From a virus: DNA of 64,000 nucleotides. The notes under the pieces were generated by a model, which made no database searches, was not told where the DNA came from, and worked only from the letters and a program-made list of their open reading frames with translations. The position numbers and the translations under genes were made by a program. The stretch covers positions 34,893 to 98,892 of IMG/VR virus record IMGVR_UViG_3300037200_000120; one strand, given 5' to 3'. This document shows positions 54,224 to 57,431 of the stretch, piece after piece (the stretch's first letter is position 1; each line of letters opens with the position of its first letter).

Positions 54224-54399
54224 GGCTTCTCTCCCCACCGATATAAGAACGGCTGGCAACTGAACTTGTCGCCAGGATTGCGTTCCACAAGCTCGTAGCC
54301 GTCGCCTTTGCATAGAGCCTCTGTGGGATAACGCATGTGTAGAATGTATGGATCGACTGTCGGCGACCAAACAATGAGCAACCAAAATCCAAACATCAT
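54220..54399 (-). CDS. Small hydrophobic protein (59 aa, not in ORF track)
   Basis: MMFGFWLLIVW...; ATGA/GTGA overlaps at both ends. Confidence 0.5.
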   Translation of the reverse strand: MMFGFWLLIVWSPTVDPYILHMRYPTEALCKGDGYELVERNPGDKFSCQPFLYRWGEKP

Positions 54400-55061
54400 G
54401 GCGTCCCCGGCGTCGGCGCCGCTCCTGGTGTATGTGACGAAGCCCCCGGCGGCCCCTGATAGAACCTCGCCGTGATCGGTTCGACAGGAAGTTCAGCCTC
54501 GACGAAACCGCCATCAGGCATGACGTCCATCGACCAAATATTGACCGAGTCCCCTTCAAATTCTAAAATGACGTCGGCGCGGTGGATCATGACGACCTTC
54601 GGGTTGATTTTGACGACCTCGACGTGAACCACGATTCCGAGCGCGTGAGGATCGCGAACGCGGTGGTCGTCGGCGGGGCGCGTCTTGTACGCATGGACGC
54701 CGTAGACGTAGTGGCCTGGGACGATACCGCGGAGCGACATGGTTTCTTTGTGAGGCAGGTAAACCAAGTGGTTATCGACGATCAGCCGGTCGTCGAGGTA
54801 TCCTCGCGAATCGCGATCCAACGAAAGCGCCCCGCCCTCCAGATTTTGATAAAAAACAGGATTTTTCGGGTCTGGGGGACCAACGGCCCAAAGGTCAATG
54901 TCGTCGTCCAACTGGGCGCTCCACTCGATGGTCACGAGATACTCGGCCTTGACTTGAACGCCGTCAGCAACCTTCTTCGGCGCAACCGAGACGATCAAGA
55001 TAGCTACAATCACAAGTAGCATATCTACGTAGGCCAAAAGCGTGCCGGCGCGGCGTTTCAT
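54396..55061 (-). CDS. MotB/ExbD-like single-TM protein with soluble beta domain
   Basis: AYVDMLLVIV TM with Asp; IEW...DIDLW...LDRD...E. Confidence 0.6.
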   Translation of the reverse strand: MKRRAGTLLAYVDMLLVIVAILIVSVAPKKVADGVQVKAEYLVTIEWSAQLDDDIDLWAVGPPDPKNPVFYQNLEGGALSLDRDSRGYLDDRLIVDNHLVYLPHKETMSLRGIVPGHYVYGVHAYKTRPADDHRVRDPHALGIVVHVEVVKINPKVVMIHRADVILEFEGDSVNIWSMDVMPDGGFVEAELPVEPITARFYQGPPGASSHTPGAAPTPGTP

Positions 55062-56944
55062 ACGGAGACCTCGGCGAAAAGAGGACCATGATCTGCAGGC
55101 TTACCTTTGAGCTTCGCCTTGATGCTCTCGCGTGCTCGCTCGTCGGGGCCGGCGAGACACAGTTTCATCCGACGTTCGATATCGGCGAGGTATTCGGTCT
55201 CGCGTTCAATCAGGACAGCGTTGAAGCCTTCGCGATATGATGCCTCGCCAGTCGTGCCCGTGCCAGCCATCGGATCAAGGATCGTTCCGCCGGGAGGACA
55301 GAGCAACCGGCAGACCCATTGCATGAGATCGACAGGCTTGACGGTCGGGTGTTTGGAACCAAGGCGCGATTCGCTGTCAGCCTTTCCCGAGTAGTGGAAT
55401 CGCTTTGCGAATTTTGTCCTCGCATCCTTCGGCGATTCCTCGCTCGCGGTGGCGCATTCGATGGCATGAAATACAGAGCCAAACAATTGCTTCAGGCTTG
55501 TTGTAGTCGTTATGATGTCTGTGTTTTCCCGCCCCTCCACATGAAGCGCAAGGTTGTGGCGTAGGATTCGCGCGCTGCGCTCTGAGATAAAATCCGGCAA
55601 CGGAAGTGATTCCAAGTCGCGGCGAGTCTTTGGCCCGGCAAGCCCTTGAGCAATAGCTGTTGCGCATAAGTCGCACAGGTCCGCCGCAGACCTTACATTT
55701 TGGACGATCTTTGACGGAAGCAGCGGCGGCGCACTCGGTTGAGCAGAAGCGCCGTTCAGCGGATGGCATTCCTTTGAATGGCTTCCCGCATTGGTCGCAC
55801 GGCCGCTCGACGGATTGCTCTTGTCCGCGCTTTCTGGCGCTTGCAAGACCGCTGCATTGACGGGAACAAAAGCGTCGCTTTGGATGTTTTGAGTCTGTGA
55901 CGCCGATTCCGCATTGTTCGCATTGCATAGCTGATTGGTATCTGATTGGACACCGCAAAGCAAGCCGCAAAGATCGCAACGGGGCTCATTTTCTTGAGGA
56001 AAAGAAGCAAAGAACCGCGCCGCAGAGCCGGAATCGCCAATGTGGCCGCGTTCATCCTGCAGCTTGAACTCGCCATAAACTCCGTTCGTCTTTGGCTCGT
56101 TGCGGCGGCCGCTGAATGTTCCGCTGGTGGTGTCCGGGAACGCCGCCAGCACTTCATCTGATCCGTCGTGGACAAGGTTCGCGGGCCATCGACCAAGCGG
56201 GCTGGCGGTCACGTTTCCACCGTTCGGCTTGAACGAAATATTTGCGCCGTCGAGATCGCTACCCACAGACGTCTTGTAGCCGTTCTGAATGCGGTAAAGA
56301 GGATTGGTTGCTGCGTTCTTTGTGTCCTCGTAGGCGATCCGAGTGGCATCAATATTCAGCGCGCCGACGCCCCAACGCCTCACATTTGCCTCAACAGTGC
56401 GCTCTGATAAAGGCTTCCGCGCCAAGCAAATCGGCTCCCACGCGGGCTTCAAGGCCCCGCCCCAAGGTCCAATCGGGTTGCCTTCCTCGTCTTGAAAAAT
56501 GTAACCTTGTTTGTTGAAGCCAGTTCCATAGGTCCACGCTAATTGATCACGAATCTGGAAACCAGCGTCTTCGATTGCGCACGCGAGCCGATGGTACGTC
56601 CGCGTTCCTCCGAACGCTGCGAGGTGGCCACCAGGCTTGAGCACACGCCGGGCCTCGCGCCAAAACTCGACGTTGTGCGCAATGCCAGTCCCGTCCCATT
56701 CCTTGCCCATGAACCCGCCAACGGGCCGATTATCTCCGTTGACGCCTACACGGGCGCGCGCAAATGGCATGTCATTGAGAGGAGGCGGGTTCTTTCTGTT
56801 TGCCTGCGTAAGCTCATAGGGCGGATCGGTCACGACAGCATCAACCGAATTGTCGGCAAGCGTTTTCACCACGGCTATGCAATCGCCAGCGTGGACGATG
56901 ACCCGACCGCCAAGAAACGAAACCGCCTGCGCGCCGTCACCCAT
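55058..56944 (-). CDS. Beta-class N6A/N4C DNA methyltransferase with ~200-aa insertion
   Basis: VTDPPY, RVLKPGGHL, GRWPAN, HPTVKP, ILDPMAGTGTTG. Confidence 0.88.
   Translation of the reverse strand: MGDGAQAVSFLGGRVIVHAGDCIAVVKTLADNSVDAVVTDPPYELTQANRKNPPPLNDMPFARARVGVNGDNRPVGGFMGKEWDGTGIAHNVEFWREARRVLKPGGHLAAFGGTRTYHRLACAIEDAGFQIRDQLAWTYGTGFNKQGYIFQDEEGNPIGPWGGALKPAWEPICLARKPLSERTVEANVRRWGVGALNIDATRIAYEDTKNAATNPLYRIQNGYKTSVGSDLDGANISFKPNGGNVTASPLGRWPANLVHDGSDEVLAAFPDTTSGTFSGRRNEPKTNGVYGEFKLQDERGHIGDSGSAARFFASFPQENEPRCDLCGLLCGVQSDTNQLCNANNAESASQTQNIQSDAFVPVNAAVLQAPESADKSNPSSGRATNAGSHSKECHPLNGASAQPSAPPLLPSKIVQNVRSAADLCDLCATAIAQGLAGPKTRRDLESLPLPDFISERSARILRHNLALHVEGRENTDIITTTTSLKQLFGSVFHAIECATASEESPKDARTKFAKRFHYSGKADSESRLGSKHPTVKPVDLMQWVCRLLCPPGGTILDPMAGTGTTGEASYREGFNAVLIERETEYLADIERRMKLCLAGPDERARESIKAKLKGKPADHGPLFAEVSV
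55377..55928 (-). CDS. Zinc-finger HNH endonuclease nested out of frame in the methyltransferase
   Basis: Three CxxC...(F/Y)CSxxC repeats plus CASCG...HHNDYNKPEAIVWLCISCHRMRH. Confidence 0.8.
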   Translation of the reverse strand: MQCEQCGIGVTDSKHPKRRFCSRQCSGLASARKRGQEQSVERPCDQCGKPFKGMPSAERRFCSTECAAAASVKDRPKCKVCGGPVRLMRNSYCSRACRAKDSPRLGITSVAGFYLRAQRANPTPQPCASCGGAGKHRHHNDYNKPEAIVWLCISCHRMRHRERGIAEGCEDKIRKAIPLLGKG

Positions 56945-57431
56945 TCCGGCGGGCCTTCCGCAATGAGGCGTTGAGTACATGAGACAGCACCAGCACGATC
57001 GCGAAGCCGGAAACGCCAGCCAAAGTGGAGAACAGCGATGTCCCGAGCATCGCCAGCACATCGCCGCCTTCCCGGAGGGCCACAGCTTGTTGAGAGAGCC
57101 CGTACACCGTGCCGCACAACCCGATCGCTGGCGAGAGGTCGGCCGCGATGCCTCCCCACTCGGCTGAATCCTCGATCTCGGCGACCGTGTCGAGTTCGTC
57201 GGCGTAGTTCCCAGCATCAGGCACCCGCCAACACAAATACCCGATATAGGCGGCCGTCCCGATCACGAGCGCCGCCACGAGCGACGAGGCATGGCTCAGA
57301 TCGTCACGCCAGATGCGACTGAGAAGTCCGAAATGGCCGGCATAAAAGGCTGCGATCCCCATCGCTACGACGATGGACAGCCATTGGAGAAACGCCGGCT
57401 TGCGGGCGGTCATGGGTTCCATCCTAGACAA
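56937..57431 (-). CDS. MotA/TolQ/ExbB proton-channel family protein
   Basis: Four hydrophobic helices; PAIGLCGTVYGL and GTSLFSTLAG match the family motifs PxxGxxGTVxG and ALxTTxxG. Confidence 0.7.
   Translation of the reverse strand: MSRMEPMTARKPAFLQWLSIVVAMGIAAFYAGHFGLLSRIWRDDLSHASSLVAALVIGTAAYIGYLCWRVPDAGNYADELDTVAEIEDSAEWGGIAADLSPAIGLCGTVYGLSQQAVALREGGDVLAMLGTSLFSTLAGVSGFAIVLVLSHVLNASLRKARRNG

What the first reader, a model, noticed from the sequence alone, without database searches (positions are those of the whole stretch)
55377..56010. HNH endonuclease hidden out of frame inside a methyltransferase that reads straight through it
Seen: between SAARFFASFP and RFHYSGKADSESRLGSKHPTVKP the methyltransferase frame carries ~200 extra codons with no stop and no recognisable fold. 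The same DNA, same strand, shifted frame, encodes a coherent protein (ATG 55928 to TGA 55377) with three CxxC/(F/Y)CSxxC zinc repeats and an HNH-like HHNDYNKPEAIVWLCISCH. I see no group I core motifs and no intein ends (C...HN-C/S/T). Inference: this is a third way for a homing endonuclease to live inside a gene. The host frame is kept open, so the insert is tolerated as a loop in the variable region, with neither RNA nor protein splicing.
Basis: partly seen in the sequence, partly recalled or inferred. Interest (0 to 1): 0.85.

Follow-up and report, generated by a model that had tools for sequence, protein, structure and literature searches.

The report
Hidden HNH gene inside phage methylase
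A phage DNA methyltransferase gene carries a complete HNH homing-endonuclease gene in a shifted reading frame, and the methyltransferase frame is kept free of stop codons across it; this arrangement was first published in 2025 for mycobacteriophages, and this is a second, widespread lineage of it.

Summary
A 628-aa PF01555 methyltransferase (55058-56944, minus strand) reads through a 205-codon insert (55394-56008). The same strand, in the +2 frame, encodes a 183-aa protein (ATG 55928 to TGA 55377) with three FCS-type zinc fingers and an HNH core.

The window alone proves little, because chance would leave that frame open about 18% of the time. The comparison is decisive. In 50 non-redundant loci retrieved through the HNH frame, the methyltransferase frame has 2 stops across the HNH gene against 87 expected. 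The third frame has 361 against 453 expected.

No intron or intein signal was found. Nearly identical methylase alleles exist with and without the insert.

Some HNH wobble positions are frozen so that the methyltransferase frame reads Leu, Ile, Phe or Cys in predicted helices. The second half of the insert therefore appears selected in both frames.

Arsenault, Gosselin and Gogarten (2025, PMC11855218) described this kind as the 'ShiLan domain' in homologous mycobacteriophage methylases. This element uses a different insertion site and a different HNH core.

Verdict: new member of a known kind. Splicing has not been excluded experimentally.

The parts
55058..56944 (-). DNA methyltransferase CDS (628 aa plus stop), N6/N4 beta-class, read through the insert. 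Residue numbers below count from 56947, so they run one higher than in the 628-aa product. DPPY is at residues 41-44, HPTVKP at 533-538 and the DPMAGTGTT motif at about 558-566.
   Evidence: PF01555 E=9e-26 in two stretches; phrog_67 E=2e-59. The flanks show the codon-position diversity expected of a coding gene under purifying selection (p3 0.68, p1 0.37-0.47, p2 0.32-0.45).
55394..56008 (-). Insert of 615 nt, which is 205 codons in the methyltransferase frame (residues 314-518), lying between F313 and Y519.
   Evidence: Alignment with insert-free homologues. There are no stops in the methyltransferase frame, and 4 in the third frame.
55377..55928 (-). Hidden HNH endonuclease ORF, 183 aa plus TGA, in frame +2 relative to the methyltransferase. 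Its stop codon overlaps host codons A523/D524 of the KAD motif. An upstream TTG at 55979 is an alternative start, but it is not conserved.
   Evidence: phrog_1271 E=1.4e-16. About 180-aa homologues P0121-P0132 begin at the same M(Q/R)CExCG. The ATG is conserved 2-5 codons before the first CxxC in nearly all loci. The AF2 model has pLDDT 89.
55854..55922 (-). HNH-frame zinc finger 1 (residues 3-25, CxxCG...FCSxxC).
   Evidence: VIA-align matches model residues 1-44 to the YacG zinc finger at a weak Z of 3.5.
55731..55799 (-). HNH-frame zinc finger 2 (residues 44-66). This is the only module detectably homologous to the ShiLan-type hidden HNH.
   Evidence: Invariant C44, C47, C62 and C66. hhalign against the phage Bipolar hidden HNH gives probability 95% over 35 columns.
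55638..55697 (-). HNH-frame zinc finger 3 (residues 78-97), containing the invariant PVRLMRN.YCS block.
55449..55550 (-). HNH core (residues 127-160): CxxCG..HRHH..Y..WLCxxCH...H, predicted as a beta-beta-alpha element.
   Evidence: Invariant C127, C130, R137, H138, H139, W150, C152, C155, H156 and H160. The model has strands 136-139 and 148-151 and a helix 153-163. The VIA-align hit list over residues 106-177 is dominated by HNH nucleases, but with Z of 3.8 or less.
55736..56008 (-). Methyltransferase-frame first half of the insert (residues 314-404). It is rich in Ser, Ala, Asn, Gln and Pro and is predicted disordered. It contains the C324-x-L-C327 motif upstream of the HNH start codon.
   Evidence: AF2 pLDDT is 30-57 here. 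CxLC is conserved in most 200-aa-class inserts.
55445..55735 (-). Methyltransferase-frame second half of the insert (residues 405-501), with predicted helices at 411-422, 426-441, 456-470 and 482-501. It overlaps HNH finger 3 and the HNH core and is dual-coding.
   Evidence: AF2 pLDDT is 69-85 here. HNH wobble bases are fixed so that the methyltransferase frame reads L424, C425, I432, L462, L466, L485 and F489.
55988..56017 (-). 5' junction, RFF|ASFPQEN. In many relatives it reads RFF|Y.(A/V)(K/A/E).D, a degenerate copy of the host sequence downstream of the site.
55376..55405 (-). 3' junction, KRFH|YSGKAD. This is the host Y(S/T).KAD motif that is contiguous with SAARFF in insert-free alleles.

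Best explanation
This is a selfish HNH homing-endonuclease gene lodged inside a phage DNA methyltransferase gene. It lies on the same strand but in the -1 (+2) frame, at the conserved SAARFF|Y.AKAD motif just before motif X (HPTVKP).

The element is not spliced out. Ribosomes translating the methyltransferase read straight through it, adding 205 residues: a disordered stretch of about 90 aa followed by a helical module of about 100 aa. Selection on the phage to keep its methylase keeps this frame free of stops, and it shapes the helical half through the wobble positions of the HNH codons.

The HNH protein is made separately, by internal initiation at a conserved ATG. It is inferred to cut insert-free alleles at the target motif, so that repair copies the element in, along with a short upstream tract.

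Shown here: the architecture, stop avoidance, dual-frame constraint, alleles with and without the insert, and ribosome-binding sites before the HNH start in a subset of relatives. Inferred: HNH activity and target, methylase activity with the insert in place, and absence of any splicing.
For: (1) Architecture.

(2) In 61 loci fetched through HNH-frame peptide patterns, a search blind to the methyltransferase frame, the HNH gene sits between the N and C parts of the methylase. Its frame is always the methyltransferase frame minus 1.

(3) Stop avoidance: 2 stops observed against 87.3 expected in the methyltransferase frame, and 361 against 453 in the third frame as control.

(4) HNH-frame amino-acid identity is 0.55, against 0.37 in the methyltransferase frame and 0.35 in the third frame. 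The HNH is therefore the primary coding frame.

(5) Wobble diversity at columns with a conserved amino acid has a median of 0.41 in the HNH gene and 0.67 in the single-coding flanks (Mann-Whitney p=1e-8). Six of 45 HNH columns are nearly fixed against 0 of 59 flank columns (Fisher p=0.005). The fixed bases give Leu, Cys, Ile or Phe in the methyltransferase frame, and they lie in helices modelled at pLDDT 69-85.

(6) The HNH start is a conserved ATG. Strong Shine-Dalgarno 5-mers occur before it in 17 of 46 loci, against a 4.3% background (p=3e-12). In many loci an HNH-frame stop lies 1-4 codons upstream, which rules out a frameshift fusion.

(7) P0004 (with insert) and P0052 (without) are 100% identical in the C part. 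They are 97-100% identical over most of the N part, but only 27-50% identical in the last roughly 45 aa before the site.

(8) No intron or intein signal was found.

(9) The same kind of element has been described in homologous methylases (PMC11855218).
Against: No experimental data exist for this element, and no RNA sequencing run could be listed.

The window's own HNH start has no recognisable Shine-Dalgarno sequence or sigma-70 promoter, so how it is expressed here is open.

The canonical Asn of the H-N-H motif is not evident, and structure searches give only weak Z scores (3.8 or less).

AF2 confidence for the helical half could be inflated by conservation that the HNH frame imposes.

The element has persisted across deep divergence (HNH identity down to 38%). 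That would also fit a long-resident or domesticated element rather than one that is actively homing.

Some loci depart from the pattern: L058 is split by a second element, L069/L070 has one stop, and P0133 is frameshifted.
Confidence: 0.78

Rival explanations
1. Domesticated dual-coding module. The element no longer moves. The helical methyltransferase-frame domain has acquired a role in the methylase, such as dimerisation, DNA contact or regulation. The HNH is retained for a phage function other than homing.
For: The helical half shows amino-acid-level selection in the methyltransferase frame. The element persists across very diverged methylases and hosts, at 39-64% GC. The same HNH family also occurs as a free-standing gene next to an insert-free methylase (L054).
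Against: A nearly identical allele pair exists with and without the insert, with a co-conversion-like tract. Insert-free alleles are the majority of close homologues: 65 against 42 among those that could be classified. HNH distances barely track flank distances (r2 about 0.1), although the N and C parts track each other no better. Decayed copies exist (P0133; P0046).
Confidence: 0.12
2. Protein-level removal. The insert is an unconventional intein-like or self-cleaving segment, so the open frame is needed only for translation through it.
For: The open frame is conserved. A Cys is conserved near the 5' end (CxLC), and Ser or Thr follows the junction Tyr.
Against: The first insert residue is Ala or Tyr, not Cys, Ser or Thr. 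The last residues are (H/W/R/F) followed by Tyr, not His-Asn followed by Cys, Ser or Thr. No Hint or intein family was detected. The predicted structure is a disordered stretch plus helices, not a HINT beta fold. True inteins in the same gene family are readily recognisable (CL..DTE...FITGN|S).
Confidence: 0.04
3. RNA-level removal by an unrecognised intron or bypass mechanism. The open frame would then be incidental.
For: HNH genes commonly live in group I introns. The 5' end of the insert resembles the downstream exon, a point the ShiLan authors also raised.
Against: No Rfam family matched at E<=10. Splicing would remove any reason for the 98% depletion of stops or for wobble selection in the host frame.
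Confidence: 0.03
4. Chance or decay. The methylase is a dead gene and the open frame results from base composition and the Cys/Arg/Gly-rich HNH sequence.
For: For the window alone the frame would be open by chance 18% of the time.
Against: The family-wide total is 2 stops against 87 expected. Both methylase flanks show the substitution pattern of purifying selection, and the catalytic motifs are intact.
Confidence: 0.02

Closest known systems
ShiLan domain / hidden HNH in mycobacteriophage DNA methylase (ShiLan gp65 and relatives; Arsenault, Gosselin & Gogarten 2025, PMC11855218; Gosselin et al. 2023, PMC9957025)
   Same: The host gene family is the same: the window's methylase is 37-47% identical to those phage methylases. 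In both, an insert of about 200 aa carries no stop in the host frame. In both, the HNH with FCS-type zinc fingers is in the third (+2) frame, no intron or intein signal is found, and the 5' end of the insert mimics the host sequence downstream of the site. Distribution is patchy in both. In both, the in-frame product is predicted as poorly ordered apart from a small helical bundle.
   Different: The insertion site differs...ALKP..E|P(I/V)VVARKP in phage Bipolar, which carries a ShiLan-type insert, against SAARFF|Y.AKAD here. The nuclease differs: a central PF13392 HNH_3 core flanked by fingers, against three N-terminal fingers and a C-terminal core that matches no Pfam family. No tblastn hit to any Mycobacterium phage was found, and only one finger is detectably homologous. 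The hosts differ: uncultivated phages at 39-64% GC rather than actinophages.
Other out-of-frame endonucleases: Pacc40 gp60 and Applejack methylases, and the cyanobacterial dnaX intein with an out-of-frame homing endonuclease (bioRxiv 10.64898/2026.09.14.751524)
   Same: An endonuclease ORF is nested out of frame in a host ORF that remains open.
   Different: The sites, and in part the host genes, differ. In the dnaX case a true intein provides splicing. The same arrangement appears in relatives L009 and L060.
Free-standing homing endonucleases that split a gene (for example mobE in Aeromonas phage Aeh1 nrdA; cited from my own knowledge)
   Same: A homing endonuclease sits inside a conserved gene with neither intron nor intein.
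   Different: In those cases the host gene is broken into two polypeptides. Here it stays as one. The split form does occur in this family, as the second element in L058.
Rickettsia palindromic elements inserted in frame in protein genes (cited from my own knowledge)
   Same: Selfish DNA is tolerated as extra peptide within a functional protein.
   Different: Those elements are short and non-coding, with no gene of their own in another frame.

Membership tests
[quoted passage not shown] | Insertion relative to insert-free homologues of a PF01555 phage methylase | tested here: met
   There are 14 residues between SAARFF and HPTVKP in insert-free homologues and 219 in the window.
[quoted passage not shown] | Host reading frame has no stop across the insert | tested here: met
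   No stops in the window. Family-wide, 2 observed against 87 expected.
[quoted passage not shown] | Alternate-frame ORF on the same strand encodes an HNH endonuclease with zinc fingers | tested here: met
   phrog_1271 E=1.4e-16. AF2 pLDDT 89 with a beta-beta-alpha element.
[quoted passage not shown] | No recognisable intron or intein | tested here: met
   Rfam at E<=10 found none. Pfam found no Hint or intein family.
[quoted passage not shown] | Patchy presence among closely related methylases | tested here: met
   The P0004/P0052 pair.
The ShiLan domain itself (same element lineage) | Same insertion site and a homologous HNH core | tested here: not met
   The site differs. No tblastn hit in mycobacteriophages. 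Only a 35-column finger aligns. The ShiLan-type core is PF13392, whereas the window's core has no Pfam match. The phage ShiLan record itself was not retrieved; phage Bipolar was used as a ShiLan-type example because its insert fits the paper's description.
HNH / His-Me finger endonuclease | Beta-beta-alpha-metal fold with a catalytic His and a Cys4 zinc site | tested here: inconclusive
   The invariant HH, CxxC...CxxCH and H160 are present, and the model has a beta-beta-alpha element. Structure matches to HNH nucleases reach only Z of 3.8 or less, Foldseek gives no hit at E<=0.001, and the canonical Asn is not evident.
HNH / His-Me finger endonuclease | Nuclease activity on the insert-free allele | not testable with these tools
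   This needs a cleavage assay.
Intein | Cys/Ser/Thr as the first residue, His-Asn at the end followed by Cys/Ser/Thr, and a HINT fold | tested here: not met
   The junctions read RFF|A... or RFF|Y... at the 5' end and ...F(H/W)|Y at the 3' end. No Hint family matched. The model is helical or disordered.
Group I / II intron | Ribozyme core detectable by covariance model | tested here: not met
   Only two chance lncRNA matches at E above 1 in 54800-56600. Selection on the host frame argues against RNA removal.
N6/N4 beta-class DNA methyltransferase (PF01555) | DPPY, HPT.KP and F.GSG-type motifs in beta-class order | tested here: met
   PF01555 E=9e-26. The motifs are invariant in alignments A1 and A4.

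The most novel reading that the evidence does not exclude
The methyltransferase-frame reading of the HNH core is not junk. It would be a folded helical module, possibly stapled by the conserved C-x-L-C ... L-C-x-x-C cysteines, that arose by overprinting a selfish gene and is now under its own purifying selection. That would make this a natural case of a new protein domain born inside a homing endonuclease gene, with about 300 nt truly coding in two frames. The -1 phase would be favoured because host-frame stops can be removed by synonymous HNH changes alone, and only about 1.7 per element are expected against about 9 in the other phase.
Probability: 0.5. Interest if true: 0.7.

Novelty: new member of a known kind. 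Interest (0 to 1): 0.5.

Why it matters
The 2025 'hidden HNH' arrangement is not a curiosity of about ten mycobacteriophages. It is a widespread way for homing endonucleases to persist in a conserved gene with neither intron nor intein.

About 60 diverged loci were retrieved here. They supply what the published work, as far as I read it, could not draw from nearly identical copies:
- a statistical demonstration that the host frame is kept open by selection;
- evidence of site-specific selection in both frames.

The family is also a practical warning for annotation. Gene callers report only the long methylase ORF, so the nuclease goes unannotated.

It also offers a tractable system for studying dual coding, internal translation initiation, and how much insertion a methyltransferase fold can tolerate.

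Tried and rejected
- **Rfam.** A permissive scan of 54800-56600 found no intron.
- **Pfam on the HNH ORF.** No family at E<=0.1, and only chance zinc-ribbon hits at E<=1.
- **PDB sequence search.** No match for the HNH, and only a chance hit at E=1.4 for the in-frame insert.
- **Foldseek against PDB with the HNH model.** Nothing at E<=0.001; the hits were zinc-finger arrays, IscB and PacI.
- **ESM Atlas on insert residues 400-510.** Only unnamed viral clusters and structure matches with TM below 0.5.
- **RNA evidence.** No RNA holder was listed for 55000-56999.
- **The look-up of encoding contigs.** The class of inserts about 160 aa long was therefore assigned by tblastn against loci already held. 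It proved to be shortened or diverged forms of the same element.
- **Promoter scan.** No sigma-70 promoter lies upstream of the HNH start on the gene strand.
- **A -1 frameshift fusion of the methylase N part to the HNH.** Rejected, because many loci have an HNH-frame stop 1-4 codons before the conserved ATG.
- **The phage ShiLan record.** It did not appear in three searches of the phage collection. Phage Bipolar, whose insert fits the published description, was used instead.
- **Distance correlation between HNH and flanks.** Uninformative, because the N and C parts of the methylase are themselves poorly correlated (r2 about 0.1).
Full report
**What is in the window**

On the minus strand an ORF runs from 57217 to 55058. 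The gene caller's product starts at ATG 56944 and has 628 aa (P0001). Residue numbers below count from 56947, so they run one higher than in that product.

Pfam PF01555 (N6/N4 DNA methylase) matches it in two pieces, E=9e-26. PHROG methyltransferase families do the same.

Insert-free homologues have 14 residues between SAARFF and HPTVKP. The window has 219. The insert is therefore 205 codons, 55394-56008, between F313 and Y519.

On the same strand, in the +2 (-1) frame, an ORF runs from ATG 55928 to TGA 55377 and encodes 183 aa. It has three CxxCG...(F/Y)CSxxC fingers and a CxxC..HRHH..WLCxxCH..H core.
- It matches PHROG 1271 'HNH endonuclease' at E=1.4e-16.
- It has no Pfam or PDB sequence match.

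The window comes from a 98.9-kb uncultivated virus record, estimated 95% complete. That record holds one copy of each gene.

**Is the open host frame more than chance?**

For the window alone it is not. Shuffling synonymous codons within the HNH ORF leaves the methyltransferase frame open in 18% of trials. Comparison with relatives settles the question.

I collected HNH homologues of about 180 aa. I then fetched DNA through HNH-frame peptide patterns, a search that is blind to the other frame:
- 1 genome locus;
- 22 viral loci;
- 48 metagenome loci.

In nearly all loci where the HNH is at least 38% identical to the window's, it lies between the N and C parts of a homologous methylase. N and C share a frame, and the HNH frame is always that frame minus one.

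In 50 non-redundant loci, at 39-64% GC, the stop counts across the HNH ORF were:

| Frame | Stops observed | Stops expected from codon shuffling |
|---|---|---|
| Methyltransferase frame | 2 | 87.3 |
| Third frame (control) | 361 | 453 |

The host frame is kept open by selection.

The exceptions are informative:
- L054 has the HNH as a free-standing gene directly after an insert-free methylase.
- L058 reads through the HNH but is then split by a second nuclease gene.
- L069/L070 has one stop in the methyltransferase frame.

**Which frame is the real gene?**

Mean pairwise amino-acid identity over the same columns is 0.55 in the HNH frame. It is 0.37 in the methyltransferase frame and 0.35 in the third frame. 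The HNH is the primary coding frame, and most conservation seen in the host frame is a by-product.

It is not all by-product. Third-position diversity in the HNH ORF is 0.52, against 0.68 in the single-coding methylase flanks.

At columns with a conserved amino acid:
- Median wobble diversity is 0.41 in the HNH and 0.67 in the flanks (Mann-Whitney p=1e-8).
- Six of 45 HNH columns are nearly fixed, against 0 of 59 flank columns (Fisher p=0.005).

The fixed bases cannot be explained by stop avoidance:
- Four Pro codons are CCT in 44-47 of the 47-48 loci scored at each column, which gives Leu in the host frame.
- An invariant Val is GTG in 47 of 48, which gives Cys.
- Tyr is TAT, which gives Ile.

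Neighbouring wobble sites vary freely. The frozen sites map to methyltransferase residues L424, C425, I432, L462, L466, L485 and F489.

AlphaFold2 on a 53-sequence alignment models the insert in three stretches:
- residues 314-403 as disordered (pLDDT 30-57);
- residues 405-501 as four main helices (pLDDT 69-85);
- residues 503-521 as poorly ordered again.

The second half of the insert therefore appears to be under amino-acid selection in both frames. A CxLC motif lies upstream of the HNH start, where only the host frame codes. It is conserved in most long inserts. Together with LCxxC it might form a zinc site. That is conjecture.

**Is it removed?**

- No Rfam family, including group I and II introns, matched even at E<=10.
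- No Hint or intein family matched.
- The junction residues (RFF|A or RFF|Y at the 5' end, F(H/W)|Y at the 3' end) are not intein-like.
- The model is not a HINT fold.
- True inteins in the same gene family are easy to recognise.

RNA splicing would remove any reason for stop avoidance or wobble selection in the host frame. Protein-level removal is not formally excluded. No RNA run could be listed.

**How the HNH is made**

A start codon, nearly always ATG, lies 2-5 codons before the first CxxC in almost every locus.

In 17 of 46 loci a strong Shine-Dalgarno 5-mer sits 4-18 nt upstream, against 4.3% of background windows (p=3e-12).

In many loci an HNH-frame stop lies 1-4 codons before that ATG. 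A -1 frameshift fusion is therefore not the general route.

The window and its high-GC relatives lack both a Shine-Dalgarno sequence and a sigma-70 promoter. Expression in the window itself is unexplained.

The AF2 model of the HNH protein is confident (pLDDT 89, with a beta-beta-alpha element at residues 136-163). Structure searches list HNH nucleases over residues 106-177, but only at Z of 3.8 or less.

**Mobility**

P0004 (with insert) and P0052 (without) compare as follows:
- The C part is 100% identical.
- Most of the N part is 97-100% identical.
- The last roughly 45 residues before the site are only 27-50% identical.

That is the pattern expected from homing with co-conversion, or from precise loss.

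Among the 120 best methylase homologues, 107 could be classified at this site. Of these, 42 carry an insert longer than 100 aa and 65 do not. All but one of the 40 inserts of 100-300 aa match the same element family, including the shorter class of about 160 aa. Decayed copies exist (P0133; P0046).

HNH distances barely track flank distances (r2 about 0.1). The two methylase halves track each other no better, so the gene is a mosaic.

**Why this phase**

In the -1 phase a host-frame stop needs an HNH codon with T at position 2 and A or G at the wobble position. The HNH is poor in such codons, and each stop can be removed by a synonymous change.

Only about 1.7 stops per element are expected in this phase, against about 9 in the other. 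This is inference. It explains how a free-standing HNH gene such as the one in L054 could land in a gene and be tolerated at once.

**Comparison with what is known**

A literature search found the kind already described:
- Gosselin et al. 2023 (PMC9957025);

Their 'ShiLan domain' has these features:
- It is a 202-aa insert in mycobacteriophage methylases.
- It has no stops in the host frame.
- It carries a third-frame HNH with zinc fingers.
- It shows no intron or intein signal.
- Its 5' end mimics the host sequence downstream of the site.
- It is predicted to form a loop or hairpin.

The window's methylase belongs to the same family, at 37-47% identity to 371 Mycobacterium phage records.

The element itself is a different lineage:
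- **Site.** In phage Bipolar, whose insert fits the published description, the site is within ...ALKP..E|PVVVARKP.
- **Nuclease core.** The hidden Bipolar nuclease has a central PF13392 core.
- **Similarity.** The window's HNH has no tblastn hit in any mycobacteriophage.
- **Shared module.** The two share only one FCS-type finger (hhalign probability 95%, 35 columns).

Applejack carries yet another nested HNH, at methylase residues of about 118-327.

Both lineages share the +2 phase and the duplicated-flank feature. Here that feature reads RFF|Y.(A/V)(K/A/E).D ... (K/R)R(L/F).|Y(S/T).KAD. In the window itself the upstream copy is degenerate, reading ASFPQE. The meaning of this repeat is unexplained.

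**Verdict**

The claim of a new 'third way' is pre-empted by the 2025 paper. This is a new member of a known kind.

Two results go beyond what I read in the published work:
- family-wide statistical proof that the host frame is kept open;
- evidence that about 300 nt are selected in both frames.

Splicing, methylase activity and HNH cleavage all need experiments.

Noticed in passing
L032:1690-2380: The same methylase gene in a relative carries a second hidden nuclease at the GFPKS site. The roughly 230-codon insert has no stops in the methylase frame, and a 222-aa zinc-finger plus HNH_3-like ORF lies in the +1 phase, a different phase from the window's element.
   Followed up: partly
L009:1220-2480 and L060:1280-2500: A canonical intein (YG|CLSEDTEIL...FITGN|SGFPKS) sits in the methylase. 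Its in-frame interior has no endonuclease domain, but an out-of-frame ORF of 250-280 aa encodes a zinc-finger HNH. This resembles the 2026 preprint on the cyanobacterial dnaX intein.
   Followed up: partly
L058:984-1742: Downstream of the read-through HNH, a second selfish gene (zinc ribbon plus DUF559/Vsr-like nuclease, PF04480 E=5e-12) splits the methylase just before HPTVKP into two ORFs. Read-through and genes-in-pieces solutions therefore occur side by side in one gene.
   Followed up: partly
L054:1559-3588: The same HNH family occurs as a free-standing gene immediately after, and slightly overlapping, an insert-free methylase. This is a plausible ancestral state.
   Followed up: partly
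P0014 and P0050 (protein hits): These are fused or tandem methylases in which a first copy ends at SAARFFYTVKPD, exactly the insertion site, and a complete second methylase follows. The site appears to be a recombination breakpoint.
   Followed up: no
P0009 and P0024 (protein hits): An extra segment of about 40 aa (NGRDGEASAERRYT.EG.TNFAALPG) lies directly after SAARFF and before the HNH insert. P0024 and P0071 also carry an in-frame LAGLIDADG domain (PF00961) elsewhere in the methylase.
   Followed up: no
window 55929-55945 (minus strand) and the equivalent positions in high-GC relatives: Loci without a Shine-Dalgarno sequence share a GATAC, GGTAT or TATAAT-like motif 8-15 nt before the HNH ATG. 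In a few relatives it reads TATAAT, about 7 nt from the ATG. This could be an internal promoter giving a leaderless mRNA, but the window itself scores no sigma-70 promoter.
   Followed up: partly
window 56937-57431 and 54396-55061 (minus strand): The methylase is flanked by membrane-protein genes with start/stop overlaps. Another note of this scan reads them as a MotA/ExbB-like and ExbD-like pair. They were not examined here.
   Followed up: no
Mycobacterium phages Willsammy, Malithi and Langerak: In these phages the homologous methylase is annotated as two genes with one or two hypothetical genes between them. DNA similarity resumes near the HPTVKP region. This may be another split by insertion close to the same site.
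   Followed up: no
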